64,000 bases of DNA from an uncultured Methanomassiliicoccales archaeon (GTDB taxonomy: Archaea; Thermoplasmatota; Thermoplasmata; Methanomassiliicoccales; Methanomethylophilaceae), in NCBI GenBank assembly GCA_959597175.1, contig CAUFXM010000007.1:6450-70449 (forward strand). Direction: 5' to 3'. Both the position numbers and the translations under genes were made by a program. The notes below the pieces were generated by a model. The model did no database searches, had not been told where the DNA came from, and saw only the letters and a list, made by a program, of their open reading frames with translations. Each line of letters begins with the position of its first letter. The first letter of the stretch is position 1. This document shows, one piece after another, positions 2,940-57,612 of the stretch.

Positions 2940-3085
2940 GTTCCCTTCCCATCTTTTCGAAGACCAAAACGGTTCGACGGCGACTCAGAAACCTCGTCGT
3001 CGGAACGGCATCCCATGAGGTCGCGTACAGATCAGTTCAAGCGAGATGATGCGGCCTCTCGGCCACGAGATGAGATGAAGAAGTG

Positions 3086-3207
3086 GCTGACAGCGTGTCT
3101 GAGTTCCCGTACGCTTGCGCAATACAGTACAGACAGATACGCGGGCGGACTTTACTTCCGGGTTCGGGATGGGACCGGGTGTGACCCCGCCGCTATGGCC
3201 GTCATAC
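3086..3207 (-). rRNA. rrf: 5S ribosomal RNA (stand-alone, no 16S/23S nearby)
   Basis: Reverse complement reads TGACGGCCATAGCGGCGGGGTCACACCCGGTCCCATCCCGAACCCGGAAGTAAAGTCCGCCCGCG...GCTGTCA; 5' TGACGGC pairs with 3' GCTGTCA (helix I); ends approximate to a few nt. Confidence 0.9.
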
Positions 3208-24406: not shown

Positions 24407-24911
24407 CCCTGGTGCGTGCAAGGATCTGCTGAATGCAGAACGCCGAGAGGACCGGCTGCAGGAGGTCCTCCCCAGCCAGCCACCCGTCAAGCTCCAGGGG
24501 TCTGTCAGGGGTTCCGAGGCCCTCGAACGTTCCGGGCGAGCGGTAGTTGTCCCTGGCCAATACACGACCGACGCTCCCGGCCAGCTCGGAAGCGATCATT
24601 GGCGGCATCCTGTCCAGTGCCATGCAGGCGACCGGCGTGCCGGAGACGTCGCAGAGGCACCCGACCGTCAGGATCCTGGTCTCCGGCCCCTCGCAGGTGT
24701 GGAGGATCACGCTAAGCCTCCTGCTCTCAGTCCGGAGGTCCATCCTCCACCCCAACCTCTCCGCCGTCGCGGAGTATATCCCCGCGCTCACGGACATCGT
24801 GTCCATGTCAGACAGTCTGTATATCGCGGAGAGGTCGTCATCGGTCATCGTTCCGCGCGGATGGCGCAGAACGCCTCCGCGACCGGTCATCGACAGCACC
24901 ATCATGCGCAT
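24330..24911 (-). CDS. hypothetical protein translationally coupled to the helicase (candidate fifth gene of the Shango-like cassette)
   Basis: 193 aa; starts MRMMVLS with ATG codons overlapping helicase TGA (24902..24911); balanced composition, unlike the R/P-rich plus-strand ORFs; last 77 nt overlap hisS convergently. Confidence 0.5.
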   Translation of the reverse strand: MRMMVLSMTGRGGVLRHPRGTMTDDDLSAIYRLSDMDTMSVSAGIYSATAERLGWRMDLRTESRRLSVILHTCEGPETRILTVGCLCDVSGTPVACMALDRMPPMIASELAGSVGRVLARDNYRSPGTFEGLGTPDRPLELDGWLAGEDLLQPVLSAFCIQQILARTRVRPRSSERDHRSGRAPAPRWTCPSA

Positions 24912-27145
24912 CGTCCGGCGTCCCTCGTCTCCGAACCCGCGGGCGATCGCGTCGAATCCGAGCGCATCCAACAGGGGTGCACGGCAGCAATCCTCGGTAC
25001 CCACCGTCGATCACCTCGGGCGATGTCGAAGTCCCAGTCCAGCCTCCTGGCGCAGAACGCGTTGGCCAGGAGGTCGTCTGGGACGAACCTGTCGAACTTC
25101 TTGGACCTCAGCCTGTCCTCCGGGGACAGGAGGGTCGATATCGCGCCTTCGGACCTGATCCGTGCCAGTCCCTCCAGTATCGCGTCAGGGGGCAGGTCGG
25201 TGGCGACCTCTATCACCACCGGGCTGTAGGCCCACAGCACCTGGACCCCGTCGATTTCGGACAGCATCCTCCTGAGAGTGTCGAACTTGACGGATCCCAG
25301 CCAGGGGTAGACCGAATACCCCAGGTCGGAGTCCACGAACACGTCCGCCGTCCCCGAGGCCCTGAAGGCGGATCTGGACGTCGACAGCTCGACCCTGGCG
25401 GCGCTGTCCAGGTACGGGTAGTCATCGTCCGACAGCAGGACATCCCTCATCTTAGCCACCACTCTGTCGTCCACGTCAGGGGCTTCGCCGGACCAGGAGC
25501 GGTCGGGGTCGCCGTCGGTCTCCTCCACATCCACCCATCCGTCGCCCCTCCTGGTGACCACCCACACCCTTCCCGCGAGACCTATCCTGGTCCCGTACTC
25601 GGGCTCCCCCTGGACGGTGCCGACCGGGGTGCCGTTGCATCTGACCTCCGTCTCCTTCTTGACGGTGAACACGGACGGGAATTCCCCGCCGAATGCCAGC
25701 CATTCCGCGGACGGGCCTATTACGAGGGACCGGTCAGCCGTCTGGACCATGGCCCCCTGGACTATCATGTGCCTCGCCAGCCTCCTGTACTCTTCGACCG
25801 TGATCCCGGCGAATGGGTCGAGCGACAGAACGTCCCTGACGAGATCGGTGAACCTAACGTCCCCGGTCGCCCCCTTCAGTGCCGCCAGGGTCTGGTGGAA
25901 CAGGAGGCCGTATGGGAGGGGGTCCGGGGCCATCCTCTCCGTCCACCCCTCCCTCAGGTACAGCTCCGTCTCCGCGATCCCCCTGGCCAGCTCCATCGAG
26001 ACCCCGTCGATCCCGGGATGCCAGATGGCATCGTCGTCGTTGCAGAACATGATCATCTCCTGCCTGCCGCCGCGCCTCCCGGACCTGCCCATCCTCTGTA
26101 CCATGCTGGAGCAGGTCCAAGGGGCGCCGATCTGCACGACCCTGTCGAGACCTCCGATGTCCATCCCGAGCTCCAGCGTCACGGTCGCCACCACCGTCGC
26201 CCTCGGATCGCCCTTCAGGTCGGCCTCAGCCAACCTCCTGGTCTCGGCGGTGAGGCTGCCGTGGTGCACCCTAACCGGGTTCCTGGACCCCCTGGCCTTC
26301 GAGACCTTCTCCAGGGATCTGGCGGTCCTCTCCGCCGCGGCCCTGCTGTTGGTGAACACGATGCAGTTGTATGGGTCTGTGAGCCTGAACAGCTCCGAGT
26401 AGTAGGACAGTACGGCACGGTCCCTGCTGCCCTCCCTGTCCTTGGGCGGGAACCTGCAGTGCTTGATCCCCATCCTGCAGGACCTGCGGTCGTCGGAGGA
26501 CACCACCGACACGCCCCGTCCGGTGCTGCCCCCCAGCCATCCGGCCGCTTCCCCCGGCTCTGAGAGCGTCGCGGACAGCCCAATCCTCCTGGGGGAGCAT
26601 CCGGCAGCCCTCTCGATGCGGGTGAGCTCGCAGAGAAGCTGGAGGCCCCTGTCTGAGGACATGAACGCGTGGAGCTCGTCGACTATGACGAATCTGAGGT
26701 TTCCGAACATACGGCGGAGATCCTCCGGATGGCCGTCGATTATGCCCTCCAGGGACTCCGGAGTGATCTGGAGGATCCCCTCCGGCTCCCTGAAGATCGC
26801 CTCCTTGCGGAACGCGTCAACGTCCCCGTGCCATCCGCTCACCTTTATCCCGGAGTCCCTGAGCATCAGGTCGAATCTGGAGAACTGGTCGTCTATCAGC
26901 GCCTTGGTGGGGCCTACGTAGAGCGCCCCGATCCCGTCAGGGGGATCAGAGTGGAGGGAAGATACGACCGGTATCAGCGCGGCCTCCGTCTTCCCTGACG
27001 ACGTTCCCGACGAGATCAGGAGGTGGTCGTCCGTGTCGAACAGGACGTCGAACGCCCTGAGCTGCACATCCCTGAACGACGTCCATCCGCTCCTGTGAAG
27101 GTGCTCCAGAACGAAGCGAGGCATGCGGTCGGTGTGGTCGTTCAT
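24902..27145 (-). CDS. Lhr-like DExH-box helicase (SngC-like)
   Basis: GTSSGKT (26987..27007), DELH (26669..26680), SAT, QRMGRSGRRG; about 300-aa C-terminal extension; ATGA overlap with upstream ATPase. Confidence 0.8.
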   Translation of the reverse strand: MNDHTDRMPRFVLEHLHRSGWTSFRDVQLRAFDVLFDTDDHLLISSGTSSGKTEAALIPVVSSLHSDPPDGIGALYVGPTKALIDDQFSRFDLMLRDSGIKVSGWHGDVDAFRKEAIFREPEGILQITPESLEGIIDGHPEDLRRMFGNLRFVIVDELHAFMSSDRGLQLLCELTRIERAAGCSPRRIGLSATLSEPGEAAGWLGGSTGRGVSVVSSDDRRSCRMGIKHCRFPPKDREGSRDRAVLSYYSELFRLTDPYNCIVFTNSRAAAERTARSLEKVSKARGSRNPVRVHHGSLTAETRRLAEADLKGDPRATVVATVTLELGMDIGGLDRVVQIGAPWTCSSMVQRMGRSGRRGGRQEMIMFCNDDDAIWHPGIDGVSMELARGIAETELYLREGWTERMAPDPLPYGLLFHQTLAALKGATGDVRFTDLVRDVLSLDPFAGITVEEYRRLARHMIVQGAMVQTADRSLVIGPSAEWLAFGGEFPSVFTVKKETEVRCNGTPVGTVQGEPEYGTRIGLAGRVWVVTRRGDGWVDVEETDGDPDRSWSGEAPDVDDRVVAKMRDVLLSDDDYPYLDSAARVELSTSRSAFRASGTADVFVDSDLGYSVYPWLGSVKFDTLRRMLSEIDGVQVLWAYSPVVIEVATDLPPDAILEGLARIRSEGAISTLLSPEDRLRSKKFDRFVPDDLLANAFCARRLDWDFDIARGDRRWVPRIAAVHPCWMRSDSTRSPAGSETRDAGRCA

Positions 27146-28431
27146 ACTTCCAGGTCACCGATGAGGTCGTCGTCCGGGTTGTCGTCTGGCTCAACCGTCC
27201 TGCCGGTCACCATCGATTCGAACGTGGCATCCGGGTTCTGGTGCAGGGTGTCCAGGAGGCTGATGAAGTCGCGGGTGATCTCCCTGGGTGTGACCAGCCC
27301 GGCCCCGACGGTGCAGGTGACAGTCTTCAGGTAGGTCTCCAGCATGGAGTCGTCTATCCCCGACCGGTATGAGTAGCGCTGCTCGTGCATCCCCCTCAGC
27401 GTCCTCAGCAGGACGAAGACCTCCTCGTTCGTCAGCGGCCTCAGGTTGATGACCGGGCCGAGGTAGTTGTCGTACCCGTTCTCGTATCTGCCGGCGACCA
27501 GTCTGGACCTGAGTGCCTCGTAGCTGTACAGACCTCTGTTGGGATCCTCTATGAACTCGGGGGTCCCGCAGACGTACATCGAGAGATGGGAGGACTTGCC
27601 CTGCATGATGTCGTTGAACATGGTGAGGAGCCTCTCGTAGTTGTTGCTGCGGGCCACCTTGCTCTGGATCTTGTACAGGATAACACCCTCGTCGATGAAT
27701 ACAACCAGGCCCTTGTACCCGATCCCGGAGCAGAACGCCGCCCACAGCTTGATGAAGTCGTACCAGTTGGCGTCGGTGACCATGTTCGATATGCCCAGGT
27801 CCTTGCGCACGTCGGACTTCAGTTCGTACTCGCCCTTGAGCCATCTCACCGAAGGCATGTCGTCAGAGCCGGAGCTGAGGTCCTCCCAGTACCTGGAGAC
27901 CACGGAGGCGAAGTCCTGATGGAACGTCATCCCGCTCATCTCTGCGGTATCACGCCTCAGACGGTCGCACACCTCTTCCGCCGTCAGGGACTCAACCGTC
28001 CTGCCCGTCTCGGAGGCTACGCGTCCCCTGATCTCGGAGACCCATTTCTGAAGCACGGTCTCCATCGCACCCCCGTCCGGCACCGACTTGACCGCCATGT
28101 TCCTTATCAGTTCGCGGTAGGTGTTCAGGCCCTCCTTCTTGCTCCCCGTGAGCCTGCGGTTTATTGCCAGGTCGGCATCCATGACGACGAACCCGCGGTC
28201 CATGGCGTAGTTGCGGATCATCTGGACCATGAAGCTCTTCCCGTTGCCGAAGCGTCCTGACACGAACCTGAACGCTCCGCCGCCCTCCGCGGTGTCCTCC
28301 AGGTCGCTGACGAATGTCTCGGTCTCCTTCCTGCGTCCCACGGCGATGTACTCCAGCCCCCTGCGGGGGACTACGCCCGAGGACAGGGCGTTCATCATCG
28401 TGATAAGTGTTCTGCGCGGGATGTCGACCAT
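27142..28431 (-). CDS. DUF2791/BrxD-like P-loop ATPase (SngB-like)
   Basis: Walker A GRFGNGKS (28234..28257), Walker B-like GLVVFIDE; N-terminal ...ALSSGVVPRRGLEYIAVGR... as I recall for DUF2791. Confidence 0.7.
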   Translation of the reverse strand: MVDIPRRTLITMMNALSSGVVPRRGLEYIAVGRRKETETFVSDLEDTAEGGGAFRFVSGRFGNGKSFMVQMIRNYAMDRGFVVMDADLAINRRLTGSKKEGLNTYRELIRNMAVKSVPDGGAMETVLQKWVSEIRGRVASETGRTVESLTAEEVCDRLRRDTAEMSGMTFHQDFASVVSRYWEDLSSGSDDMPSVRWLKGEYELKSDVRKDLGISNMVTDANWYDFIKLWAAFCSGIGYKGLVVFIDEGVILYKIQSKVARSNNYERLLTMFNDIMQGKSSHLSMYVCGTPEFIEDPNRGLYSYEALRSRLVAGRYENGYDNYLGPVINLRPLTNEEVFVLLRTLRGMHEQRYSYRSGIDDSMLETYLKTVTCTVGAGLVTPREITRDFISLLDTLHQNPDATFESMVTGRTVEPDDNPDDDLIGDLEV

Positions 28432-28456
28432 GACATGTCCATGGACTCGATGTATT

Positions 28457-28714
28457 TCAACTTGAAGAGGGGCCGCCGCCGAGCCGTGTCAGCGCCGCCC
28501 GCAGGTCGTCCTCGTAGTCCTCCACCAGCGAGCCCGTCTCCACGACCACGTCACCGACGGTGTCCATCGCCGCGGTGTTGATCTCCTCCTCCAGGGCGCC
28601 CCTCTTGAGCACATCCGCCACCGGTTTCACGCCGTCCAGGAGGGATGAGAGGTATCCCAAGGCATCGTCAGATAGGGATCCTACGAAGGCGGACCAGGGC
28701 CCGTCCGCAGTCAT
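28457..28714 (-). CDS. TerB-C-like small ORF; in frame with upstream ORF across a TAG
   Basis: 85 aa; RGALEEEINTAAMDTVGDVVVE resembles the conserved core of TerB-C; same frame as 28733..30706, separated only by TAG plus 6 sense codons. Confidence 0.55.
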   Translation of the reverse strand: MTADGPWSAFVGSLSDDALGYLSSLLDGVKPVADVLKRGALEEEINTAAMDTVGDVVVETGSLVEDYEDDLRAALTRLGGGPSSS

Positions 28715-28732
28715 CGCCGGTTCGGGAACGGG

Positions 28733-30706
28733 CTAGGACAGCACCTCGGGCTCCACCTCGTCCTCTGTGACCATCAACGTCCTCACGGCGTCAAGATCGT
28801 CCTCGGCGGAGCTCACAGCGCGCATGTCGATGGAGAATCTGTCCATCCTCCGCTCCAGGTCCTGCCTGCGGACCGATCTGGAATGTTCCCTGTAGATGCC
28901 TTCCAGCTTCTCGTCCATCCCCTCATGATTCCTCCCGAACGTGCATCTGGAGGGCCATCCCTTCAACCCGAGTTCCCTGTTCACCGCGCGGATGGTGTAT
29001 GCAAGGCACGTCCTCGCGATCCAGGATGCGCCGCTGAGGTTCTTGGGCTTGAGCGCGGGCGTCGCATGGGTTGTGCTCCTGTGGGGCATGTAGTTGAACA
29101 GCGTCGTGTACGATGTCCCCCTCATTCCGATCTCATCGCTGACGATGAACTCGCATCTCGACCACATCCCGCTCAGGAGGACGTTCAAGAGGGTGTCGTA
29201 ATCCGCGTCGGGATCCATGAACCTGCCCATCTTCCCGCCGCACCAGGCGTCCAGCATCCTGGCGGTCATGGTCCCGGGCGACCGGAGGAGCAGCTTCAGC
29301 GTGACGCATCTGTCCAACTGGTTCCACCGCGAGGCATCCGTGCCTTCGGGAGGTCCGATGGCAGGATCCATCATGTGCAGGTCGGCGTAGTCGAGTATGA
29401 CCCTGTCCAGGGTCTCGGCGGGCCATACCCCGTCAGTTGTGTATGCCCTCCTGAGGTTGAGGAGGATGCCCATCACATCCTGGGGCTCGCCCCAGGAATC
29501 GACCAGATCGCAAAGGAGCAGCCACAGGTACCCCTCGTCGGTGCCTCTGAAGACGCCTGCCGCGACCTCGTCCCTCCATGAGAGATAGAAGTCCCTCTGG
29601 GCGGGGGTCATCGTCGAGAACTGGGCCGGCACCGACCCCGATTCCACGTATGGGGCGTTGACCCTGCCGACAGACGTCCTGTTGGACTCCAGGTCCTTGA
29701 AGAACCTGCCGGAGGCCCTGACGTTCCTGAGCCTCCCCTTCGGTGCGACGGAGCCCAGGACCTGGATCTCCGCAGGGGTCGAGGGGGCCTCTGCGAACAC
29801 AGGTTCGTCCCACTGGGTCCATTCCCCCTGAGCCTCCGAGCCGAGGGCGTCCATCGCGATCTGCAGGTCGACGGAGTCCATGGCCTCGATCGGTCCGACG
29901 CCCAGGCCGTCCCAGTCCCAGAACGTGCGTTCGCACACCGCCGCCGCTATACCGAGGAAGGTCGCTCTCCACCGGTCCGTGTCGTATGACCTGTAGCGAA
30001 CGGTGATGCGTTCGGGTCCTGCCAGGTAGGCGAACCCGTCGAAGAGCATGACGTCCTCGGAGCGGTCGTCGGCGATGGCGTCGAAGCCATGGTCGGACAC
30101 CACGGCTCTGGCACACCTTGTGAAGAGGGTGGAGAACGTTGCCCGGTCCGGCACCTCCAGGATCCTCTCGTCTCCGCACATCTCGGCTATCACCGGGACG
30201 TCGATGTCGTTCTGCCTCCTTCCGTTGAGCGCCGAGTGCACCGCGTATCCCCTGAGCCTCCTGCCGGACCACATGAACCTGCAGTCCCAGTCGAGGCCCA
30301 GAAGCAGTGCCAGATCCTTGGACGCGTTGGCGGCCATCACGGACACCGGCGTGCCGCGGAACCTTCCGACCATCCCTGCCACCTCGTCCAGGAGCTTCGA
30401 GGACCCGAAGCCCGCTCCTTCCATGCCGACGGTGTTGGCTATCTCGCAGATCCTGAGCCAGGCGAAGCCCCAGTCCGCGGGGACGTCCTCCCCGGCGTTT
30501 AGCCCCGTTCTCCATGACAGGTACGATTCCAACGTCTCGGGGGACATGTCGGCGTGGTACACGGGCCTGTCGTCAGGTTGGCGGTACCTGCCGGGAGCAA
30601 CCCTCGCATCCCTGTACCTCATGATGTCCGAGAGGAACGAGTCCGGAGGCAGCAGGATGAGCGAACGGCCACGGGCCTCAAGTCTGCGACGGGACTCCGC
30701 ATCCAT
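28733..30706 (-). CDS. TerB-N-like protein with two TerB-N modules (SngA-like); ends at TAG
   Basis: Two copies of ...M(S/T)P....YLSWR....AG.....G(F/Y).WL..C... (nt 30428..30574 and 29489..29656); C-terminus FSIDMRAVSSAEDDLDAVRTLM resembles the start of TerB-C. Confidence 0.6.
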   Translation of the reverse strand: MDAESRRRLEARGRSLILLPPDSFLSDIMRYRDARVAPGRYRQPDDRPVYHADMSPETLESYLSWRTGLNAGEDVPADWGFAWLRICEIANTVGMEGAGFGSSKLLDEVAGMVGRFRGTPVSVMAANASKDLALLLGLDWDCRFMWSGRRLRGYAVHSALNGRRQNDIDVPVIAEMCGDERILEVPDRATFSTLFTRCARAVVSDHGFDAIADDRSEDVMLFDGFAYLAGPERITVRYRSYDTDRWRATFLGIAAAVCERTFWDWDGLGVGPIEAMDSVDLQIAMDALGSEAQGEWTQWDEPVFAEAPSTPAEIQVLGSVAPKGRLRNVRASGRFFKDLESNRTSVGRVNAPYVESGSVPAQFSTMTPAQRDFYLSWRDEVAAGVFRGTDEGYLWLLLCDLVDSWGEPQDVMGILLNLRRAYTTDGVWPAETLDRVILDYADLHMMDPAIGPPEGTDASRWNQLDRCVTLKLLLRSPGTMTARMLDAWCGGKMGRFMDPDADYDTLLNVLLSGMWSRCEFIVSDEIGMRGTSYTTLFNYMPHRSTTHATPALKPKNLSGASWIARTCLAYTIRAVNRELGLKGWPSRCTFGRNHEGMDEKLEGIYREHSRSVRRQDLERRMDRFSIDMRAVSSAEDDLDAVRTLMVTEDEVEPEVLS

Positions 30707-31830: not shown

Positions 31831-32316
31831 ATGGAAGTCTCGATCAGAGGTTACGAGGAGGGGGACATCCCCGCGATGACGGCGATCTGGAACGCCATTG
31901 TTGACGGTGGAATGGCCTTCCCCCAGGAGGATCCGCTGGATCATGAGGGGGCCATAGAGTTCTTCGGCTCACAGACGCACTGCGGAGTGGCCGTGTACGA
32001 CGGGAAGGTCGTCGGCCTGTACATCCTCCATCCCAACAACGTCGGCAGGTGCGGCCACATCTGCAACGCCTCGTACGCAGTCGAGAAGGGGATGAACAAC
32101 AAGGGCGTCGGATCCAGGCTGGTGGAGGACTCCCTCGACGTGGCGGCCCGTCTCGGTTTCAGGATCATGCAGTTCAACGCCGTGGTCCAGGAGAACGCTT
32201 CCGCGATACATCTGTACGAGAAGGAGGGGTTCCACAGGCTCGGGATGATCCCAGGCGGGTTCCGCGGCAAGGACGGGGAGTACAGGACGATCGTGCTGTT
32301 CTATCACGAGCTCTGA
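31831..32316 (+). CDS. GNAT-family N-acetyltransferase
   Basis: ATG 31831 (MEVSIRGYEEGD); ...NKGVGSRLVEDSL...HLYEKEGF acetyl-CoA-binding pattern. Confidence 0.8.
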   Translation: MEVSIRGYEEGDIPAMTAIWNAIVDGGMAFPQEDPLDHEGAIEFFGSQTHCGVAVYDGKVVGLYILHPNNVGRCGHICNASYAVEKGMNNKGVGSRLVEDSLDVAARLGFRIMQFNAVVQENASAIHLYEKEGFHRLGMIPGGFRGKDGEYRTIVLFYHEL

Positions 32317-33457
32317 TACAATGGATTACGCACGTTACGGAAGGAGCCTCATAAGGGCGTTCCTGGCAGGGATGTGCATCTCCATAGGGTGCTGCGTCTA
32401 CCTGGGATGCGATGTGAAGTGGGTGGGTGCTGTCCTGTTCGCAATCGGCCTGATGACCGTGGTGGCATTCAGGCTGGACCTGTACACAGGCAAGGTCGGC
32501 TACATAGTGGAGAACCCGCCGTCCTACCTGTGGTACATGCCCGTCATCATCGTGGGGAACTTCATCGGCTGCCTGGTGACCGGCCTCATGATGCCGATCG
32601 AGTCCGCCCAGACGCTGGTGGACAACAAGCTCGCCCTGGAGTGGTACTCGGTGCTGTTCCGCGGGGTGTTCTGCGGCATGCTGATGTTCATCGCAGTGGA
32701 CTTCTACAAGCAGAGGAACAGCTTCCTGGCCCTTGTCTTCTGCGTGCCCGTGTTCATCCTCGCCGGGTTCGAGCACTCCATAGCGGACATGTTCTACTTC
32801 TGCTCGGCAGGGGAGTACTCGCTGGATGCGCTGGTTTTCATCCTGATCGTGATAGTCGGCAACGGAATCGGCGGGATGCTCATCCCGTTCTGCAGGAAGT
32901 ACATGTACGATCCCGAGCCGCCGGCCCCGTCGCAGTAACCCGGGTCTGGCCCCTTCGGGGAGGACGGCCACGGAGATCCTGGCCATATCCTCGGGGGGCT
33001 CGGCCATCCCGCCCTCCATCCATGCAGACAGGCATCCGAACACCCCGCCCACATGGTAGGCGGCCCTGTAGCGTGGGAGAGGTTCCTCAGGCATGCCGTC
33101 GGGGAAGAACCTTGATTCCAGGACGTCTAGGAGGAGATGGGTCAGGCGGTCGCGCCTGATCATCAGGAGTTCTTCTCTATGGGATGCGAAGCAGGTGAAC
33201 ATCCTGACGAGGTAGTCCTCGGTGGAGACGTCCTCTAGCATCCCTTCCAGGTACTCGTCCATGATCTCGTCAAGGGCGTGGCGGATCATGTCGTCCTTCG
33301 ATGCGAAGTTGCGGTAGCATGTGGTGCGGTTCATCCCTGCCCGCTCGGCAATCTCGGATACCTGCACCTCCCCGTACGGCTTCTCGGACATGAGTGACAG
33401 CAGCGCTCCTGCTATCCTGTCCCTGGTATCGTCCACGGTCTCACCCGCGCGTCTCAT
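32174..33457 (-). CDS. TetR/AcrR-family regulator; TetR-like part is about the first 170 codons (to about 32945), ORF has no stop until 32174
   Basis: ATG 33457; HTH VQVSEIAERAGMNRTTCYRNFASKDDM; after ...PEDMARISVAVL the frame stays open antisense through the whole FNT gene with H/D/R-rich non-protein-like sequence. Confidence 0.6.
   Translation of the reverse strand: MRRAGETVDDTRDRIAGALLSLMSEKPYGEVQVSEIAERAGMNRTTCYRNFASKDDMIRHALDEIMDEYLEGMLEDVSTEDYLVRMFTCFASHREELLMIRRDRLTHLLLDVLESRFFPDGMPEEPLPRYRAAYHVGGVFGCLSAWMEGGMAEPPEDMARISVAVLPEGARPGLLRRGRRLGIVHVLPAERDEHPADSVADYHDQDENQRIQRVLPCRAEVEHVRYGVLEPGEDEHGHAEDKGQEAVPLLVEVHCDEHQHAAEHPAEQHRVPLQGELVVHQRLGGLDRHHEAGHQAADEVPHDDDGHVPQVGRRVLHYVADLACVQVQPECHHGHQADCEQDSTHPLHIASQVDAAPYGDAHPCQERPYEAPSVTCVIHCIRARDRTARSSCTPRPCRGTRLGSSRACGTPPSRTDVSRKRSPGPRR
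32321..32938 (+). CDS. formate/nitrite transporter (FNT)-family protein, short form
   Basis: GFEHSIADM signature, LDLYTGK, 6 predicted TM; 4 nt after GNAT gene. Confidence 0.7.
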   Translation: MDYARYGRSLIRAFLAGMCISIGCCVYLGCDVKWVGAVLFAIGLMTVVAFRLDLYTGKVGYIVENPPSYLWYMPVIIVGNFIGCLVTGLMMPIESAQTLVDNKLALEWYSVLFRGVFCGMLMFIAVDFYKQRNSFLALVFCVPVFILAGFEHSIADMFYFCSAGEYSLDALVFILIVIVGNGIGGMLIPFCRKYMYDPEPPAPSQ

Positions 33458-33478
33458 GATGGGACGATGTTCTGGTAA

Positions 33479-33523
33479 TTTTATATATTTAAGCAACATA
33501 TGTTGCGTGCAACAGATGTTGCA
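33479..33523. promoter_or_regulatory. TATA-like box plus two tandem GCAACA-NN-TGTTGC palindromes (candidate TetR operators)
   Basis: ttttatatattt at 33479..33490; gcaacatatgttgc 33493..33506 (perfect palindrome); gcaacagatgttgc 33509..33522; between divergent TetR (33457) and MBL (33537) starts. Confidence 0.6.
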
Positions 33524-33536
33524 TAGAGGCGACGGC

Positions 33537-34172
33537 ATGATAGAGATGATCCCAACGCTCCACCAGTTCAGCACATACATCCCTACGATGGATTTCACCA
33601 TCCACAGGTACCTCCTGGCCACCGATCCGGCGGTGCTCTTTGCCACCGGTACCCTGGAAGATGCCCGCAGGGAGTTGTCCGAGGTGGAAGGGATCCTGGG
33701 GGACAGGGAGCTGGGATACATCGTCGTCTCCCACATAGAGTCTGACGAGTGCGGCGGGCTCCAGACGTATCTGGACAGGTACCCCGGGGCCGTCGTGCTA
33801 TGCTCACACCTGGGGGCCAGGGAGCTCCCGGGATACGGTTTCCATGGGAACATCAGGGCTGTCTCGCAGGGAGACAGGATCCAGGAGGGGGAGGTCTCCC
33901 TGGCGTTCGCGGACTATCCATCGGAGGTCCATCTGCAGGACGGGATCGTCTGCATAGAGGAGGGTACGGGGGTGCTCTACAGCGCCGACATGTTCCTGTC
34001 CTTTGGCGACGGGCGCGGGAAGACCGAGGATGTCCAATGGGCCGAGGCCGTCGACGGACTCCGCGAGGACAGGATACCGGAGGACAGGCTGGTGGCGCTC
34101 AAGGAGGCACTGCTCCAGATGTCTCCGGCGATCGTCGCGGTGGGCCACGGGACATGTCTGAGGACACGCTGA
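33537..34172 (+). CDS. MBL-fold metallo-hydrolase-like protein
   Basis: ATG 33537 (MIEMIPTLHQF); VVSHIESDECGG (HxxxDxxG-like) and C-terminal GHG; upstream part of ORF 33321.. is antisense to TetR. Confidence 0.55.
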   Translation: MIEMIPTLHQFSTYIPTMDFTIHRYLLATDPAVLFATGTLEDARRELSEVEGILGDRELGYIVVSHIESDECGGLQTYLDRYPGAVVLCSHLGARELPGYGFHGNIRAVSQGDRIQEGEVSLAFADYPSEVHLQDGIVCIEEGTGVLYSADMFLSFGDGRGKTEDVQWAEAVDGLREDRIPEDRLVALKEALLQMSPAIVAVGHGTCLRTR

Positions 34173-34902: not shown

Positions 34903-34977
34903 TGGTCCCAATGAGATTTGAACTCATGACCTTCCGGTTATCAGCCGGACGCTCGAACCAAGCTAAGCTATGGGACC
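34903..34977 (-). tRNA. tRNA-Ile (GAT)
   Basis: Reverse complement GGTCCCATAGCTTAGC...TCCGGCTGATAACCGGA...GAGTTCAAATCTC...TGGGACCA; TATA-like atttatatg about 30 nt upstream. Confidence 0.9.
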
Positions 34978-35064
34978 GATATACCCCAGCATAAAGAGGT
35001 GACATATAAATCTTTCTGAACATGTGCGGTATGTCTGGCATACCCGTTTATAACGTCCGAAACC

Positions 35065-35550
35065 ATGGCCGATGTCATGGACCCAGTGTACCGGGAGAGC
35101 CGTCCCGTGATGCCAAGGAATCTGACCATCCTGGTCGCCGTAGTTCTCCTGGCGACAGTAGCATTCATGTTGTTCTCGGACGCATTCCTCGGGACCGACA
35201 CCCCATCCTGGATGCCGATCGTGACCGCGGTGGTCTTCGTGGTCCTGATCGTCGTGTTCCTGTTCGCGAGACTGGATCTTGAGATCTACGGGGACAGGGT
35301 CGAGATCAGGTACATCCTCAGGCGTGTGACAATCGGTGCAGGGGAGATCATCGATGTCCGTCACGGGGACCTCACCGCGATCCGCAACTACGCCAACTGG
35401 AACCTCAAGGGGGTCAAGCACCGTACGTACTCCCGTGTGGGGGACGAGGGCGGGGTGGCGATGAAGGTCACCGGGAAGAGGGTGTTCGTCGTCTCGTCCG
35501 AGGACCCTGAGACGGTCGCCGGGATGATCCCCGGCGAGAGGGAGGAGTGA
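35065..35550 (+). CDS. hypothetical membrane protein (2 TM + soluble C-domain)
   Basis: Two hydrophobic helices then about 90-aa domain; no family recognised. Confidence 0.5.
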   Translation: MADVMDPVYRESRPVMPRNLTILVAVVLLATVAFMLFSDAFLGTDTPSWMPIVTAVVFVVLIVVFLFARLDLEIYGDRVEIRYILRRVTIGAGEIIDVRHGDLTAIRNYANWNLKGVKHRTYSRVGDEGGVAMKVTGKRVFVVSSEDPETVAGMIPGEREE

Positions 35551-36005
35551 CCGTGCCGGCCACCACTTTCCACTGGATAAGGGTGCAGACTTTCTGCTAC
35601 GCCACCGAGAGGAAGGAGCTGCTGGAGGATGTGATGGAGGACCTCCTGGGCGAGGCCGACTACTCCGAGGAGCCAACCGAGAGCGAGCACGGCAACGTCA
35701 TGACGATCCTGGAGGCCAGGCTCACCAAGCAGCGGCAGTACCGGGAACTGTTCGAGAGACTGGGGCCCGAGATCCGCGGATGGATCGTCTCGGACATCGA
35801 CAACCGTGTGGACGAGGACTGCGTCTTCTACATCAGGCTTGACAAGCAGAAGGCCGTGGGCGGCGTCTACGAGATCGCCCACCACGGCGACGTCATCGCC
35901 GTGACCGGAAAGGTCCAGGCCCATCCGGCGAGGAAGGAGGTGGCAGAGAGGGTGCTGACGGAGTTCCTGTCGTCCCTTCAGTCGCACTCCGGGGGCTCCT
36001 CCTGA
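35547..36005 (+). CDS. DUF54/COG1325-like RNA-binding protein (predicted exosome-associated)
   Basis: GTG start overlapping upstream stop; 152 aa; overall resemblance only. Confidence 0.4.
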   Translation: MTVPATTFHWIRVQTFCYATERKELLEDVMEDLLGEADYSEEPTESEHGNVMTILEARLTKQRQYRELFERLGPEIRGWIVSDIDNRVDEDCVFYIRLDKQKAVGGVYEIAHHGDVIAVTGKVQAHPARKEVAERVLTEFLSSLQSHSGGSS

Positions 36006-45751: not shown

Positions 45752-46936
45752 GTGAATTCTATGGCTGTAAAGGACCTAGAGGATCTGAAGAAGATAACGA
45801 TGCTCAGATCGCAGATCGACGGCGTATCCGTGGAGAGGGTGATGTCCGTCGATTTCCCGACGGTTTCGTCGGACGACCGCATCTCGGATGCGTTGGCGGT
45901 CATGAGGGAGACCAAGTACCAGGACGTGCCCGTCGTCGACAACGGGGAGTTCATGGGGATGGTCAGTTACGCTTCCATCCTCAGGAAGAAGAGCGTCACA
46001 CTGGACGCCAAGGTCAAGAACTTCATCCGCCAGCTCCCTTCGGTGTCCCCGGACATGGAGATCACCAAGATCTCGGAGTACATGGTGTCCAACAACTGCC
46101 GCCAGCTGCCCGTCGTCAACGGGAAGAGGGTGGTCGGGATCATCAGGAGGACCAAGCTCATCGAGATCGTCAGGGACATCAAGGCCCTGAAGGAGATCAA
46201 GGTCTGGGAGATCATGAGTAACCCCGTCGAGTCCGTCAAGGTGAACGACCTGATGGACGATGCGCTGGCCCTCATGATCCGCGAGGACTACAGGACCATC
46301 CCGGTCGTCAACGAGACCAACAACGTGGTGGGCATCGTCGGCATGAGGGAGATCATCGACAACAACTGGAAGAAGGACAACAAGACCATCGGGGACCTGG
46401 AGAAGAGCTCCCGCTCCCAGATCACCGTGGAGTCCATCGCCCTCACGTCGGTGAAGACCATCCAGTGGGACAGCGACATCTCCGTCGCCGTGGACATGAT
46501 GGTGGACAACAAGATCTCCACCCTGCCGGTGGTCGAGGGCAAGGACCTGGTGGGGGTCATCACCGAGTACGACATCATCGAGCTCCTCGCCGCTTGCAGG
46601 GAGAGGGACATGCTGCTCGTGCAGATCAGCGGTCTGGAGGACGACGAGAAGGACGCCACCGAGGCCATCTACGCGGACATCGAATCCATGGTGTCCAAGA
46701 TCTCCAAGATCTACAAGCCGGAGTCCCTGACCATGCACGTGTCCCGCTACAACGACACCGGAGGCAACTTCAAGTACAGCATCAGTGCCAGGCTCTTCAT
46801 CAACGGGGAGGCGGTCATGATGAAGGAGGTGGGCTGGGACCTGATCCAGACCGCATCCGACCTGATCACCAAGCTCGAGGACGCCGTCATCAACATGAAG
46901 GACTCGAAGGTCACGTTCAGGAAGAGGAAGAAGTGA
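45752..46936 (+). CDS. CBS-domain protein (four CBS motifs + about 110-aa C-domain)
   Basis: Repeated CBS pattern (VPVVD, LPVVN, IPVVN, LPVVE). Confidence 0.75.
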   Translation: MNSMAVKDLEDLKKITMLRSQIDGVSVERVMSVDFPTVSSDDRISDALAVMRETKYQDVPVVDNGEFMGMVSYASILRKKSVTLDAKVKNFIRQLPSVSPDMEITKISEYMVSNNCRQLPVVNGKRVVGIIRRTKLIEIVRDIKALKEIKVWEIMSNPVESVKVNDLMDDALALMIREDYRTIPVVNETNNVVGIVGMREIIDNNWKKDNKTIGDLEKSSRSQITVESIALTSVKTIQWDSDISVAVDMMVDNKISTLPVVEGKDLVGVITEYDIIELLAACRERDMLLVQISGLEDDEKDATEAIYADIESMVSKISKIYKPESLTMHVSRYNDTGGNFKYSISARLFINGEAVMMKEVGWDLIQTASDLITKLEDAVINMKDSKVTFRKRKK

Positions 46937-46953
46937 GGTCATCCGACCCTCTG

Positions 46954-47023
46954 CCGTCCAACGGGGACGGATAAACCCCCCGCGGTTTCCCGCGGGGGTA
47001 AAACCCGCCCGGCTCTGCCGGGC
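46954..47023. terminator. three consecutive GC hairpins between convergent genes
   Basis: ccgtcc..ggacgg (46954..46970); cccccgcgg-tttc-ccgcggggg (46977..46998); gcccggc-tct-gccgggc (47007..47023). Confidence 0.45.
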
Positions 47024-47031
47024 ATTATCGT

Positions 47032-48231
47032 TTACTGCTTCTTGAGCATCTTGCCGCACCTGGGGCACCAGTCTGCGTTGGCGGGGACGGCGCATCCGCA
47101 GTCGGGGCACAGCACGTCCTCGGAGGACACGTCCACGGTCCCGTCGCGATGGACGACCTCGTTCTCGGTGGAGTCGAACTTGGCTCCGCACCTGGGGCAC
47201 TCGGTGGCGTCGGAGGGGACCTCGGCGCCGCACTCGGAGCACTGGAAGAAGTCCTTCTTCTTCACCCTCAGCTCATCGGGGACGTCGATGTATGCCCCGC
47301 ACTTCCTGCAGTTGATCTCGCCCGGGAGCACCATGGCCCCGCACTCCTTGCATCTGCCGTATCCCTGGGGGTACAGCCTGCCCTCGGCCTCCATCCTCTT
47401 GCGGGTCTTCTGGGCGCTGCTCCTCATGAGGTGGGAGAACACCAGGATCACGATGAACACGATGATCGTGATCACGGTGATGTACAGGGAGTTCTCCAGA
47501 GCGAGTCCCATGTACGAGTGGTTGCCCTCGTTGATGAGGACCTGGTAGAACGCGTTGCTGGTGTTCTCGACGGTTCCGATAACGGCGACGTAGATGCCGT
47601 CGTCCAGGCCCAGGTCGGAGACCGTCACGGAGTACCGATTGTCCCCCAGCGGTGTCACGGAAACGTCGTAGCTGATGCTGTGGCTCACCCCGCTCAACCG
47701 GCTCTCGTCTATCTCCCCTCCCGGTTGTATGAACAGCAGCAGATGCGAGTAGCTGTACGAGTTGAAGCTGAGCCCGTCCACATCGCCGATCTGCACCAGC
47801 ACATGGTCGGTGTCGTTGTCCAGCCTGATGGTGAACTGCATCATGTCGGGAGTCGTCTGCCCGTTCTCGTCCACGATCTCGGGGGTGTACGAGAAGTCGC
47901 TGACGCGGTCGTTCTGAAGGCTGATCCCGTTCTCGGTGTCTGCAAGGGACCCGGAGGTCACCAGCGTGCTGGCGAGCAGGGCTATGACGAAGAAGATCGC
48001 ACCTGCGAGTGCCTTGATCTTGACCGATGACACGCCCATCATGTGGGGGATCATGTACAGCACTATGGCGGCTATGAGGAAGCCGAAGCACTGGAGCCCC
48101 ATGTAGACGACCAGGATCACGGCGAGGAATATGCCGGCGATGATGGCGATCCACTGTTTGTTGGTGAGGGCGCGGAACTCATCCGAGAGTCCTGCAAGCG
48201 GTGAGCTCCTGCCCTTCGCGATTTCAGTCAT
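47032..48231 (-). CDS. membrane protein with three C-terminal zinc-ribbon modules
   Basis: N-terminal TM helices, central domain, TM, then CKECG..CRKCG, CSECG..CPRCG, CPDCG..CPRCG. Confidence 0.6.
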   Translation of the reverse strand: MTEIAKGRSSPLAGLSDEFRALTNKQWIAIIAGIFLAVILVVYMGLQCFGFLIAAIVLYMIPHMMGVSSVKIKALAGAIFFVIALLASTLVTSGSLADTENGISLQNDRVSDFSYTPEIVDENGQTTPDMMQFTIRLDNDTDHVLVQIGDVDGLSFNSYSYSHLLLFIQPGGEIDESRLSGVSHSISYDVSVTPLGDNRYSVTVSDLGLDDGIYVAVIGTVENTSNAFYQVLINEGNHSYMGLALENSLYITVITIIVFIVILVFSHLMRSSAQKTRKRMEAEGRLYPQGYGRCKECGAMVLPGEINCRKCGAYIDVPDELRVKKKDFFQCSECGAEVPSDATECPRCGAKFDSTENEVVHRDGTVDVSSEDVLCPDCGCAVPANADWCPRCGKMLKKQ

Positions 48232-52863: not shown

Positions 52864-53688
52864 ATGGAGTACGTGGAGCTCAACAACGGCGTGATGATGC
52901 CCATGGTCGGTTTCGGGACATGGGACCTGAGGGGAGAATCGGGTAGAAGGGCGATCCTCGACGCCCTCGATTCCGGGTACCGCCTGATCGACACCGCCCG
53001 TATGTACGGGAACGAGGGCATCGTGGGGGAGGCGATCCGCGAGAGCAGTGTCCCCAGAGACCAGGTGTTCGTGACCACCAAGATATACCAGCCGTGCATC
53101 ACCCGCCGGAAGGCGGCCGAGGCCATCGACGACTCCCTGAGGAGGATGGGGCTCGATTACATCGATATGGTCCTGGTCCACGAGCCGTATCCCACGTCGT
53201 CGGAGATGTTCGGGGCCATCGTGGACGCGGTGGAAGAGGGGAAGGTCAGAGCCGCCGGAGTGTCAAACTTCGACGAGGATCTGTGCCGCAGGGTCTCGGA
53301 ATGCGGAACGGTCCCGGCGGTGAACCAGGTGGAGTCCCACGTATACTTCCCCCAGCTCTCCCTGAGGGATCTGATGATGGGGATGGGGACGGTCATGCAG
53401 TCATGGGGGCCGTTCACCGAGGGCCGTATGGACATATTCAACGACCCGGTTCTCAAGGGGATAGCGGAGGGCTGCGGAAGGACCGTGGCCCAGGTGGCGC
53501 TTAGGTACCTGGTCCAGAACGGGATCCCGGTGATACCCAAGTCCTCCCGGAGGGAGAGGATGGAGGAGAACCTAGGGGTCCTGGATTTCGAGCTTTCCGC
53601 CTCGGACATGAAGGAGATTTCGAAGCTGGACGGGGGCAGGTCCCTGTTCGGATGGTACCGATGCGAGGATGTGACGACATGGATGTGA
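52864..53688 (+). CDS. aldo/keto reductase (diketogulonate-reductase-like)
   Basis: ATG 52864 (MEYVELNNGVMMPMVGFGTW); IDTARMYGNE, VSNF, IPKS motifs; ORF opens at GTG 52846. Confidence 0.85.
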   Translation: MEYVELNNGVMMPMVGFGTWDLRGESGRRAILDALDSGYRLIDTARMYGNEGIVGEAIRESSVPRDQVFVTTKIYQPCITRRKAAEAIDDSLRRMGLDYIDMVLVHEPYPTSSEMFGAIVDAVEEGKVRAAGVSNFDEDLCRRVSECGTVPAVNQVESHVYFPQLSLRDLMMGMGTVMQSWGPFTEGRMDIFNDPVLKGIAEGCGRTVAQVALRYLVQNGIPVIPKSSRRERMEENLGVLDFELSASDMKEISKLDGGRSLFGWYRCEDVTTWM

Positions 53689-57475: not shown

Positions 57476-57612
57476 TTTGATTATCTCCTTGAGTGTTGGC
57501 AACGCCTTCACCTTATTTAATATTACTATGATTGTTCTGCGCATGGGCTTCTAGTCGCGTGCGCGCGTGCGTAATAATGGTCAGGATTTCTGGACCGTCT
57601 CCGAGGGGGCTT

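What the first reader, a model, noticed from the sequence alone, without database searches (positions are those of the whole stretch)
28457..28780. In-frame TAG joins the TerB-N ORF to the TerB-C-like ORF (candidate pyrrolysine insertion or programmed read-through)
SEEN: The 657-aa ORF ends with TAG (forward cta at 28733..28735). The 85-aa ORF (start 28714) is in the same frame. Only six sense codons (PVPEPA) lie between them and there is no other stop. Read-through would give ...EVEPEVLS-[TAG]-PVPEPAMTADGPW..., a single protein of about 749 aa. The domain that appears split across the two ORFs (TerB-C) is one contiguous domain in bacterial homologues, as I recall them.

INFERENCE: The TAG is decoded at least part of the time, as Pyl or by suppression. 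That would give a short and a long isoform of the sensor-like subunit. Alternatively the gene was recently inactivated.
Basis: partly seen in the sequence, partly recalled or inferred. Interest (0 to 1): 0.8.

Follow-up and report, generated by a model that had tools for sequence, protein, structure and literature searches.

The report
Pyrrolysine-type TAG inside archaeal Shango gene
The two ORFs are one gene for the SngA subunit of a Shango-type antiviral operon in a gut methanogen whose lineage reads TAG as pyrrolysine, so this is a correct catch of an already described recoding phenomenon, not a new mechanism.

Summary
A 657-aa ORF ends at TAG (28735..28733, minus strand), six sense codons follow, and an 85-aa ORF continues in the same frame.

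The two ORFs are one gene, sngA, the TerB-N/TerB-C subunit of a Shango-like sngA-sngB-sngC operon. The 85-aa ORF alone matches the C-terminal end of the SngA profile. More than 100 homologues are contiguous across the site. A 98%-identical strain has GAG (Glu) there and encodes a single 749-aa protein.

The window comes from a Methanomassiliicoccales/Methanomethylophilaceae archaeon. None of about 57 credible genes in the window terminates at TAG. The only other in-frame TAG lies inside the substrate domain of a LysR regulator, again where the sister strain has Glu. Four divergent sngA orthologues keep a TAG at one shared column (Trp in the window) with long open frames after it.

Best reading: TAG is translated as pyrrolysine, as in published "Genetic Code 34", placing Pyl in a predicted disordered acidic linker. 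The pyl genes were not seen, and a minor truncated isoform cannot be excluded. This is a new member of a known kind.

The parts
28457..30706 (-). sngA, a single 749-codon gene if TAG is read through. It has two TerB-N-like repeats, a helix, an acidic linker and a TerB-C bundle. Stop is TGA at 28459..28457.
   Evidence: Translation. Pfam TerB_N 1.7e-10. PADLOC SngA 1e-31 with the profile running across the TAG. Sister-strain protein P0001 is a contiguous 749 aa. 220 homologues found.
28733..28735 (-). In-frame TAG at codon 658, the candidate pyrrolysine codon.
   Evidence: Sequence. GAG in L009, TAG in L001-L008 and L097. Glu in all four more distant orthologues at this column. Lies in the predicted disordered linker 647-661.
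28715..28732 (-). Six sense codons (PVPEPA) between the TAG and the first ATG of the 85-aa ORF. They are part of the acidic/proline linker.
   Evidence: The same PVPEPA is encoded in the contiguous gene of L009.
28457..28714 (-). The 85-aa ORF called under code 11. It is the C-terminal TerB-C bundle of SngA, not a separate gene.
   Evidence: Hits SngA profile positions 451-525/528, E 3.4e-7. Carries family-invariant N710, D719 and Y731. pLDDT ~95.
30470..30472 (-). Codon 79 (Trp in the translation), in the first 'D-x-G-F-x-W-L-R-I-C-E' motif. Orthologues L091, L094, L095 and L096 carry TAG at this column.
   Evidence: Alignment of read-through orthologues.
27142..28431 (-). sngB, a BrxC/BrxD-type P-loop ATPase. 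It starts 25 nt after the sngA stop.
   Evidence: Pfam BrxC_BrxD 8.8e-137. PADLOC SngB 8.3e-151.
24902..27145 (-). sngC, a DEAD/Helicase_C (BrxHI-like) helicase. It overlaps sngB by 4 nt.
   Evidence: Pfam DEAD 6.2e-25 and Helicase_C 3.4e-17. PADLOC SngC 1e-171.
53652..54572 (+). LysR-family regulator gene with a second in-frame TAG (53979..53981) inside its substrate-binding domain. This is supporting evidence that TAG is a sense codon in this genome.
   Evidence: Pfam LysR_substrate 1.7e-31 spans the TAG. Sister-strain protein P0151 (306 aa) has Glu there, and homologues have Glu or Asp.

Best explanation
The 657-aa and 85-aa ORFs are one gene, sngA. It encodes the TerB-N/TerB-C subunit of a three-gene Shango-type operon (sngA, sngB ATPase, sngC helicase) in a Methanomethylophilaceae-like methanogenic archaeon.

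In this lineage UAG is read by Pyl-tRNA(Pyl) as pyrrolysine without any local signal. This is published as 'Genetic Code 34', with dual stop/Pyl meaning in some relatives. A single GAG-to-TAG transversion therefore behaves as a Glu-to-Pyl missense change in a disordered acidic/proline linker. The ribosome continues into the TerB-C bundle and makes the full 749-residue protein.

Shown here: the gene is one unit by homology; the site is Glu in relatives; TAG is not used as a terminator in the window; and TAG is conserved as an internal codon in orthologues.

Inferred: this genome carries and expresses pylTSBCD, and the inserted residue is Pyl.

Some termination at the UAG, giving a minor 657-aa product without the TerB-C bundle, is possible but is not needed to explain the data.
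For: 1. One gene.
- PADLOC SngA aligns to residues 600-737 of the fusion (profile 375-525/528) across codon 658.
- The 85-aa ORF alone matches profile positions 451-525.
- 220 homologues were found, and most align in one stretch across ~624-739.
- Pfam TerB_C in P0002 and P0003 spans the TAG column.
- P0001 from a 98% strain is 749 aa with Glu/GAG at codon 658.

2. Lineage.
- RtcB is 88-89% identical to Methanomassiliicoccales/Ca. Methanoprimaticola genomes.
- Archaeal markers are present in the window, as is an MtaA-like URO-D methyltransferase.

3. TAG is not a terminator here.
- Codon-usage-scored gene calls give TGA 50, TAA 7, TAG 2. Both TAGs are internal to conserved domains.
- The other TAG-ended ORFs are antisense artefacts.
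- Published medians for TAG stops are 4.1% in Pyl+ Methanomethylophilaceae and 22% in Pyl-minus archaea.
- My own arithmetic from those medians: 0 of 57 has probability ~0.09 under the first and ~7e-7 under the second.

4. Comparative proof of translation through TAG in this gene family.
- L091, L094, L095 and L096 all carry TAG at one shared column. L091, L094 and L095 are 37-48% identical to each other.
- Conserved sequence follows immediately after the TAG ('GFAWLRICEI').
- L091, L094 and L095 have 650-680 further open codons.

5. The TAG-658 allele persists in two lineages that differ by 3.5% nt (pS ~0.1). In both, the downstream frame is intact, sngB is intact as far as the contig reaches, and downstream pN/pS is 0.44.

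6. Residue 658 lies in a pLDDT<50 linker, and the column is in a variable region.

7. Literature.
- Proteomics confirmed Pyl at every detectable TAG in Methanomethylophilus alvi.
Against: - No pylT, pylS, pylBCD or methylamine methyltransferase gene lies in the 64-kb window.
- An attempt to link a PylRS to the same contigs failed.
- Methanomethylophilaceae include Pyl-minus genomes.
- TAG depletion is a historical signal. It would persist for some time after a recent loss of the Pyl system.
- Both derived TAGs in the window are in dispensable genes (a defence system and a LysR regulator), which are also where nonsense mutations would be tolerated.
- Purifying selection on the 91 codons after the TAG cannot be shown statistically. 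There are 6 nonsynonymous and 5 synonymous differences between the two TAG lineages.
- In M. acetivorans UAG gives both a truncated and a full-length product, so full read-through is not guaranteed.
Confidence: 0.78

Rival explanations
1. Nonsense mutation. UAG terminates here, so the lineage makes a 657-aa SngA lacking the TerB-C bundle. The Shango system is then recently inactivated or decaying, and the 85-aa ORF is a remnant.
For: - The change is a derived single-base GAG-to-TAG relative to the sister strain and to all four more distant orthologues.
- Defence genes are dispensable and often inactivated.
- pyl genes were not observed.
- The family has Pyl-minus members.
- Selection on the downstream 91 codons is not demonstrable.
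Against: - None of ~57 genes terminates at TAG.
- The only two in-frame TAGs are both TAG rather than TGA or TAA, and both lie inside conserved domains.
- No TGA/TAA disruption or frameshift is seen in 22 kb compared with the sister strain.
- The TAG allele is shared by lineages 3.5% apart with everything downstream intact.
- Orthologues conserve another TAG over deep divergence, so the clade translates TAG.
Confidence: 0.1
2. Functional split. UAG terminates, and the 85-aa TerB-C module is translated separately from ATG 28714 by reinitiation or coupling. It then works in trans with the 657-aa protein.
For: - An ATG lies six codons after the TAG.
- The folded TerB-C bundle is wholly within the 85-aa ORF, behind a flexible linker.
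- A stand-alone 111-aa TerB_C protein preceded by TGA exists in one short contig (L092/P0117).
Against: - There is no Shine-Dalgarno-like motif before ATG 28714. Such motifs are rare in this genome, so this is weak evidence.
- In the orthologues with TAG at the N-terminal column, the next ATG lies up to ~27 codons downstream. Conserved sequence between the TAG and that ATG would be lost, so reinitiation cannot be the general solution.
- The ATG is conserved as an ordinary Met in the contiguous gene of L009.
Confidence: 0.05
3. Regulated dual decoding. UAG-658 gives both a truncated and a full-length SngA in proportions set by Pyl-tRNA supply (methylamine availability). This would couple defence-system activity to metabolism.
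For: - Dual stop/Pyl decoding with substrate-tuned pyl expression was shown for RdmS in M. acetivorans.
Against: - The site is a recent substitution in a variable linker, not a conserved feature.
- The GAG allele coexists in the same species.
- There is no structure after the TAG.
- In the related M. alvi the low TAG use suggests constitutive Pyl insertion.
- This is a refinement of the best explanation, not a true alternative.
Confidence: 0.06
4. Sequencing or assembly error creating a false stop.
For: None beyond the single-base nature of the difference from L009.
Against: The same TAG is present in nine independent assemblies from different samples.
Confidence: 0.01

Closest known systems
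Internal ('Category 1') TAG genes of Genetic Code 34 archaea such as Methanomethylophilus alvi (Kivenson et al., bioRxiv 10.1101/2024.09.30.615893; Borrel et al. 2014, PMC4153887)
   Same: - In-frame TAG with homology on both sides and an extension of more than 15 aa.
- Host in the same family-level group.
- TAG almost absent as a terminator.
- No PYLIS-like structure.
- Gene callers split the gene into fragments.
- Defence proteins (Cas1, Cas3 and others) are among the known Pyl proteins.
   Different: - Pyl in a Shango SngA/TerB protein is not mentioned in the main text of the papers read. Their supplementary tables were not available.
- The pyl machinery and Pyl incorporation are not demonstrated for this genome.
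- Here a natural GAG/TAG polymorphism exists within one species-level cluster.
Shango anti-phage system (SngA TerB-like, SngB ATPase, SngC helicase) of E. coli and Pseudomonas aeruginosa PA14 (Millman et al. 2022, bioRxiv 10.1101/2022.05.11.491447; Johnson et al. 2023, PMC10250203)
   Same: - Same three components in one co-directional operon.
- PADLOC profile matches: SngA 1e-31, SngB 8e-151, SngC 1e-171.
- SngA has TerB-N and TerB-C regions.
   Different: - The host is an archaeon.
- SngA is only distantly related to the profile and has an extra N-terminal TerB-N-like repeat.
- sngA carries a TAG codon.
- Antiviral activity is untested.
RdmS sensor kinase of Methanosarcina acetivorans, with UAG read both as stop and as Pyl (Shalvarjian et al. 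2025, PMC12626013)
   Same: A non-methyltransferase, non-essential, sensor-like protein with an internal UAG and no known recoding signal. It is a precedent for short and long products.
   Different: - Different protein family and archaeal order.
- Dual products were shown by western blot there; nothing was measured here.
- TAG use as a terminator is higher in M. acetivorans.
tRNA-His guanylyltransferase (Thg1) of M. acetivorans, where Pyl arose by neutral evolution (cited as ref. 39 in Kivenson et al.; details from my own knowledge)
   Same: Pyl at a non-conserved, functionally indifferent position that arose by a point mutation in a Pyl-decoding host.
   Different: Different protein. In Thg1 the Pyl-containing enzyme was shown to be active, whereas this case is only inferred.

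Membership tests
Shango defence system (SngABC) | Three adjacent co-directional genes: a TerB-like protein, an ATPase and a DEAD/DEAH helicase. | tested here: met
   30706..28457 (sngA), 28431..27142 (sngB) and 27145..24902 (sngC) are all on the minus strand, with a 25-nt gap and a 4-nt overlap.
Shango defence system (SngABC) | Each protein matches the system's profile HMMs. | tested here: met
   PADLOC SngA 1e-31, SngB 8.3e-151, SngC 1e-171. Each is the top hit for its protein.
Shango defence system (SngABC) | Confers resistance to viruses. | not testable with these tools
   Activity is shown only for E. coli and P. aeruginosa systems. No archaeal test is known to me.
Pyl-encoding internal TAG (Category 1 gene, Genetic Code 34) | [quoted passage not shown] | tested here: met
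   P0001 is 98% identical over all 749 residues. P0002 is 36% identical over residues 104-740. The extension is 91 aa.
Pyl-encoding internal TAG (Category 1 gene, Genetic Code 34) | The genome encodes pylT, pylS and pylBCD. | tested here: inconclusive
   None is in the window. The PylRS search returned 3441 homologues, but none of the 120 listed lies on a contig of the lengths known for this organism. The rest of the genome is not available.
Pyl-encoding internal TAG (Category 1 gene, Genetic Code 34) | TAG is rare or absent as a terminator, and read-through causes no large out-of-frame overlaps (no Category 4 genes). | tested here: met
   Within the window only: 59 scored ORFs give TGA 50, TAA 7, TAG 2. 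Both TAGs are internal to conserved domains, and read-through ends at in-frame TGA without overlap.
Pyl-encoding internal TAG (Category 1 gene, Genetic Code 34) | The host belongs to a Pyl-bearing methanogen lineage. | tested here: met
   RtcB is 88-89% identical to Methanomassiliicoccales/Ca. Methanoprimaticola genomes. Caveat: the family also has Pyl-minus members.
Pyl-encoding internal TAG (Category 1 gene, Genetic Code 34) | Pyl is detected at the site by mass spectrometry. | not testable with these tools
   No proteome data are available.
PYLIS-assisted recoding (mtmB type) | A stable stem-loop lies immediately 3' of the UAG. | tested here: not met
   The 121 nt from the TAG fold no better than shuffled sequences (z = +0.52). 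The literature reports that this element is not required for Pyl insertion.
TerB_C domain (Pfam PF15615) | A significant match to the profile that spans the TAG column. | tested here: inconclusive
   The direct hit on the window protein is sub-threshold (E 0.065, profile 112-136, inside the 85-aa part). Orthologues P0002 (1.4e-8, residues 532-654) and P0003 (1.4e-6, residues 513-643) pass the cut-off and span the aligned TAG column.
Pseudogene or split gene | The stop is not decoded, and relaxed constraint or further lesions appear downstream. | tested here: inconclusive
   No further lesion appears in nine assemblies. Downstream pN/pS is 0.44, based on only 11 substitutions.

The most novel reading that the evidence does not exclude
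Pyrrolysine may be selectively maintained in the Shango sensor subunit of Methanomethylophilaceae. Four divergent sngA orthologues keep a TAG at the same position of the first TerB-N 'D-x-G-[FY]-x-W-L' motif, where the window has Trp and another relative has Tyr. The window's lineage has added two further Glu-to-TAG codons (sngA 658 and LysR 110, counted from ATG 53652) within about 2-3% sequence divergence.

If the shared site is under selection, it would be one of very few conserved, non-methyltransferase Pyl positions, and the first in an antiviral system. The GAG/TAG polymorphism would also be a natural experiment for measuring how freely a Code-34 genome gains new Pyl codons.
Probability: 0.25. 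Interest if true: 0.6.

Novelty: new member of a known kind. Interest (0 to 1): 0.4.

Why it matters
- **Annotation.** Standard code-11 gene calling cuts this Shango sngA (and its orthologues, and a LysR regulator) into fragments. As a result, defence-system finders and pseudogene counts are wrong for these gut methanogens.
- **Biology.** This adds an antiviral-system subunit to the list of likely Pyl proteins.
- **A snapshot of code evolution.** TAG and GAG alleles coexist in one species-level cluster, and a second Glu-to-TAG change lies in the same 64 kb. This matches the idea that in a fully recoded genome new amber codons behave as ordinary missense mutations.
- **The conserved TAG column.** The shared TAG in sngA orthologues is unusual. 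The literature describes non-methyltransferase Pyl sites as almost always singletons.

None of this changes the known mechanism.

Tried and rejected
- **Exact-sequence look-ups** of the 657-aa ORF, SngB and the 178-aa LysR fragment found nothing. Only the 85-aa ORF was on record.
- **Species-representative genomes.** A scan with P0001 found no relative. The second scan was therefore spent on RtcB to place the organism.
- **My first greedy ORF census** listed three TAG-ended ORFs. Two of them (34963..35676 and 45776..47242, minus strand) are antisense artefacts of real plus-strand genes. A TAG-permissive ORF census was useless because antisense frames become very long.
- **Direct Pfam TerB_C match** on the window protein is sub-threshold.
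- **PYLIS-like structure:** none.
- **Shine-Dalgarno analysis** before ATG 28714 is uninformative, because most genes here lack such motifs.
- **Short homologues** P0117 (L092) and P0107 (L093) are preceded by TGA, so they are not TAG splits.
- **Linking a PylRS to this organism.** I searched with the M. alvus PylRS sequence recalled from memory, which turned out 100% identical to P0271. I then looked for hits on contigs of 408036, 95438 or 73786 nt. None was among the 120 listed.
- **Foldseek of the SngA model against PDB:** no hit better than E 0.1.
- **Supplementary tables** of the Code 34 preprint are not held.
- **Metagenome scan** with an alignment of the closest SngA homologues (A3) gave only three loci. 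One of them, L097, was useful.
- **pN/pS downstream of the TAG** lacks power, with only 11 substitutions.
Full report
**1. The observation**

On the minus strand an ATG-initiated ORF runs from 30706 to a TAG at 28735..28733 (657 codons). Six sense codons (PVPEPA) follow. ATG 28714 then opens an 85-codon ORF in the same frame, ending at TGA 28459..28457. Read-through gives 749 residues.

The geometry alone is not remarkable. In this window 9 of 23 closely spaced same-strand gene pairs share a frame.

The TAG is real. It is present in eight independent metagenome assemblies that are >99.8% identical to the window (L001-L008). It is also present in a more distant one (L097, 96.5% nt identity).

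**2. What the gene is**

The 657-aa ORF has a Pfam TerB_N match. The next two genes on the same strand are a BrxC/BrxD-type ATPase (28431..27142, E 8.8e-137) and a DEAD/Helicase_C helicase (27145..24902).

Against PADLOC the three proteins are SngA (1e-31), SngB (8.3e-151) and SngC (1e-171). These are the components of the Shango anti-phage system. Shango was described in E. coli and Pseudomonas as a TerB-like protein plus an ATPase plus a helicase.

**3. The two ORFs are one gene**

- The SngA profile aligns to residues 600-737 of the fused protein (profile positions 375-525 of 528), straight across codon 658.
- The 85-aa ORF on its own matches profile positions 451-525 (E 3.4e-7). The 657-aa ORF's best stretch lies at profile positions 64-197.
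- An exhaustive phmmer search gave 220 homologues (106 at E ≤1e-10). Most align in a single stretch over query residues ~624-739.
- The alignments show a conserved helix (IDxxAVxxAExDLxxVxxMM), a variable acidic/proline linker, and then the most conserved part of the family (GWxxFxxSL...EDSINxxAMDxVGDxVVExGxxxEDY). Invariant N710, D719 and Y731 all lie downstream of the TAG.
- Pfam TerB_C is sub-threshold on the window protein itself (E 0.065). It is significant in the nearest homologues (P0002 residues 532-654, P0003 residues 513-643), where it spans the aligned TAG column.
- An AlphaFold2 model (mean pLDDT 82.5) places residues 647-661 in a pLDDT<50 coil. The coil lies between helix 628-645 and a confident C-terminal bundle at 670-741. 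No solved structure resembles the model.

The TerB-C region as defined by the profiles therefore spans the TAG. The break itself falls in a flexible linker.

**4. What relatives have at the site**

A protein 98% identical (P0001, 749 aa) is encoded as one ORF in a syntenic contig (L009, 98.2% nt identity over 22 kb). Its codon 658 is GAG.

In an alignment of read-through orthologues from three more distant contigs (L091, L094, L095; 28-34% identical to the window) the column is also Glu. TAG is therefore derived from GAG by one G-to-T change.

The TAG allele occurs in the window lineage and in L097, which differ by 3.5% nt (pS about 0.1). In L097 the downstream 91 codons are open, and sngB is open as far as the contig reaches. 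Downstream pN/pS between the two TAG lineages is 0.44 (6 nonsynonymous and 5 synonymous changes). That is similar to the value against the GAG lineage, but it has too little power to test.

**5. The organism and its use of TAG**

The window's RtcB is 88-89% identical to Methanomassiliicoccales/Ca. Methanoprimaticola genomes. The window also encodes:
- an archaeosine-type tRNA-guanine transglycosylase domain set;
- BspA-type LRR proteins;
- an MtaA-like URO-D methyltransferase;
- an isolated 5S rRNA gene.

Scattered rRNA genes are a described trait of this order.

With codon-usage-scored gene calls, 59 ORFs end in TGA (50), TAA (7) or TAG (2). The two TAGs are sngA and a LysR-family regulator. 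In the LysR gene (53652..54572) the TAG (53979..53981) lies inside the LysR_substrate domain, and the Pfam match runs across it (1.7e-31).

The sister-strain LysR (P0151, 306 aa, recorded with the same longest-contig length, 408,036 nt, as P0001) has Glu at that position. More distant homologues have Glu or Asp.

So none of about 57 credible genes uses TAG as a terminator, and both in-frame TAGs are derived Glu-to-TAG changes inside conserved proteins. Published medians for TAG terminators are 4.1% in Pyl+ Methanomethylophilaceae and 22% in Pyl-minus archaea. By my own arithmetic, 0 of 57 has a probability of about 0.09 under the first and about 7e-7 under the second.

**6. Comparative evidence that this clade translates TAG in sngA**

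The closest distinct homologues were recorded as N-terminally short proteins (P0002, P0003, P0005). In each contig a 73-77-aa ORF lies just upstream in the same frame and ends in TAG.

Read through, L091, L094 and L095 all carry TAG at one and the same alignment column. A fourth contig, L096, carries TAG at the corresponding position ('TVSPD-TAG-GFAWLRVCERI'). The column lies between D and G of the first 'D-x-G-F-x-W-L-R-I-C-E' motif. There the window and L009 have Trp (window codon 79, 30472..30470), and another relative has Tyr.

L091, L094 and L095 are only 37-48% identical to each other and range from 55.6 to 65.7% GC. They sit in syntenic archaeal neighbourhoods and keep 650-680 open codons after the TAG. 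Conserved sequence lies between the TAG and the next ATG, and it would be lost if TAG terminated. A nonsense codon could not be conserved in this way.

A further homologue (L090) has an in-frame TAG at yet another position, just before the conserved helix.

**7. Mechanism**

The published picture fits. The first three sequenced Methanomassiliicoccales genomes all carry pylTSBCD. Ca. M. alvus uses TAG for only 1.6% of stops and has many predicted Pyl proteins, including Cas1. [quoted passage not shown]

Proteomics on Methanomethylophilus alvi found Pyl at every detectable TAG. That led to the proposal of Genetic Code 34, with internal 'Category 1' TAG genes as its signature.

No local signal is needed, and none is present here. 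The 121 nt from the TAG fold no better than shuffles (z +0.52).

I therefore conclude, with about 0.78 confidence, that UAG-658 is read as pyrrolysine and a full-length 749-aa SngA is made. The substitution is a near-neutral Glu-to-Pyl change in a disordered linker.

What is shown:
- gene unity;
- ancestry of the site;
- absence of TAG terminators in the window;
- conservation of another TAG in orthologues.

What is inferred:
- the presence and expression of the pyl cassette in this genome;
- the identity of the inserted residue.

**8. Rivals**

- *A true nonsense mutation (about 0.10).* It is favoured only by the dispensability of the two affected genes, the unseen pyl genes, and the existence of Pyl-minus family members.
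- *A functional split with reinitiation at ATG 28714 (about 0.05).* It is conceivable because the folded bundle lies wholly in the 85-aa ORF, and a stand-alone TerB_C protein exists (L092). It cannot explain the orthologues' N-terminal TAG.
- *Regulated dual decoding, as for RdmS in M. acetivorans.* This is a possible refinement, but the site is recent and polymorphic.
- *Sequencing error.* Excluded.

**9. Comparison and novelty**

This is a member of a known kind: an internal Pyl-type TAG in a Methanomethylophilaceae genome, within a recognisable Shango operon.

New elements:
- the protein family concerned;
- the within-species GAG/TAG polymorphism;
- a second fresh Glu-to-TAG change in the same window;
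- the positionally conserved TAG in sngA orthologues.

The last point is unusual, because non-methyltransferase Pyl sites are reported to be almost always singletons.

**10. What I could not do**

- Link pyl genes to this genome.
- Read the supplementary Pyl-protein tables of the Code 34 preprint.
- Obtain any expression or proteome evidence.

Noticed in passing
window 53652..54572 (+), TAG at 53979..53981: A second in-frame TAG. A LysR-family regulator is split by code-11 calling into 109-aa and 178-aa ORFs. The Pfam LysR_substrate match runs across the TAG. The sister-strain protein P0151 has Glu there, so this is another derived Glu-to-TAG change in the same lineage.
   Followed up: yes
L091 501..503; L094 1787..1789; L095 5014..5016; L096 620..622 (window codon 79 at 30472..30470): Four divergent sngA orthologues keep an in-frame TAG at the same alignment column of the first TerB-N-like motif. 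The window has Trp there and P0110 has Tyr. Frames stay open for 650-680 codons afterwards. Positional conservation of a non-methyltransferase Pyl candidate is reported to be rare.
   Followed up: partly
L090 72..74: Another SngA homologue has an in-frame TAG at a third position, just before the conserved 'DAIDDAESDL' helix. The 90-aa database protein P0121 is the gene caller's fragment after that TAG.
   Followed up: partly
L094, L091, L095, L098 compared with window 24902..30706: SngB is 93% (L094) and 80% (L091) identical to the window's SngB, while SngA is only about 34% identical. sngA is therefore hypervariable relative to its partners. L095 has sngA without sngB or sngC downstream. L098 has two tandem sngA paralogues ahead of sngB.
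   Followed up: partly
window 3085..3206 (-): A 5S rRNA gene stands alone with no 16S or 23S nearby. This fits the scattered rRNA genes described for Methanomassiliicoccales.
   Followed up: no
window 32174..33853 (-) versus 32321..32938 (+): A 559-aa minus-strand ORF has TetR_N and TetR_C_8 matches. It overlaps, in antisense, a 205-aa plus-strand ORF with a formate/nitrite-transporter match (1.3e-23). The transporter is short for its family. The true gene structure here is unclear.
   Followed up: partly
window 34963..35676 (-) and 45776..47242 (-): These long ORFs ending in TAG are antisense artefacts of real plus-strand genes. They are typical of GC-rich DNA and would inflate any naive count of TAG terminators.
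   Followed up: yes
window 56438..57544 (-): A URO-D family (MtaA/MtbA-like methylcobamide:CoM methyltransferase-type) gene, consistent with a methyl-reducing methanogen. No corrinoid protein or methylamine methyltransferase gene lies next to it in the window.
   Followed up: no
L092 93..428: A stand-alone 111-aa protein matches only the post-linker part of Pfam TerB_C (profile 52-148) and is preceded by an in-frame TGA. The TerB-C bundle may exist as a separate small protein in some genomes, but the contig is only 621 nt.
   Followed up: partly
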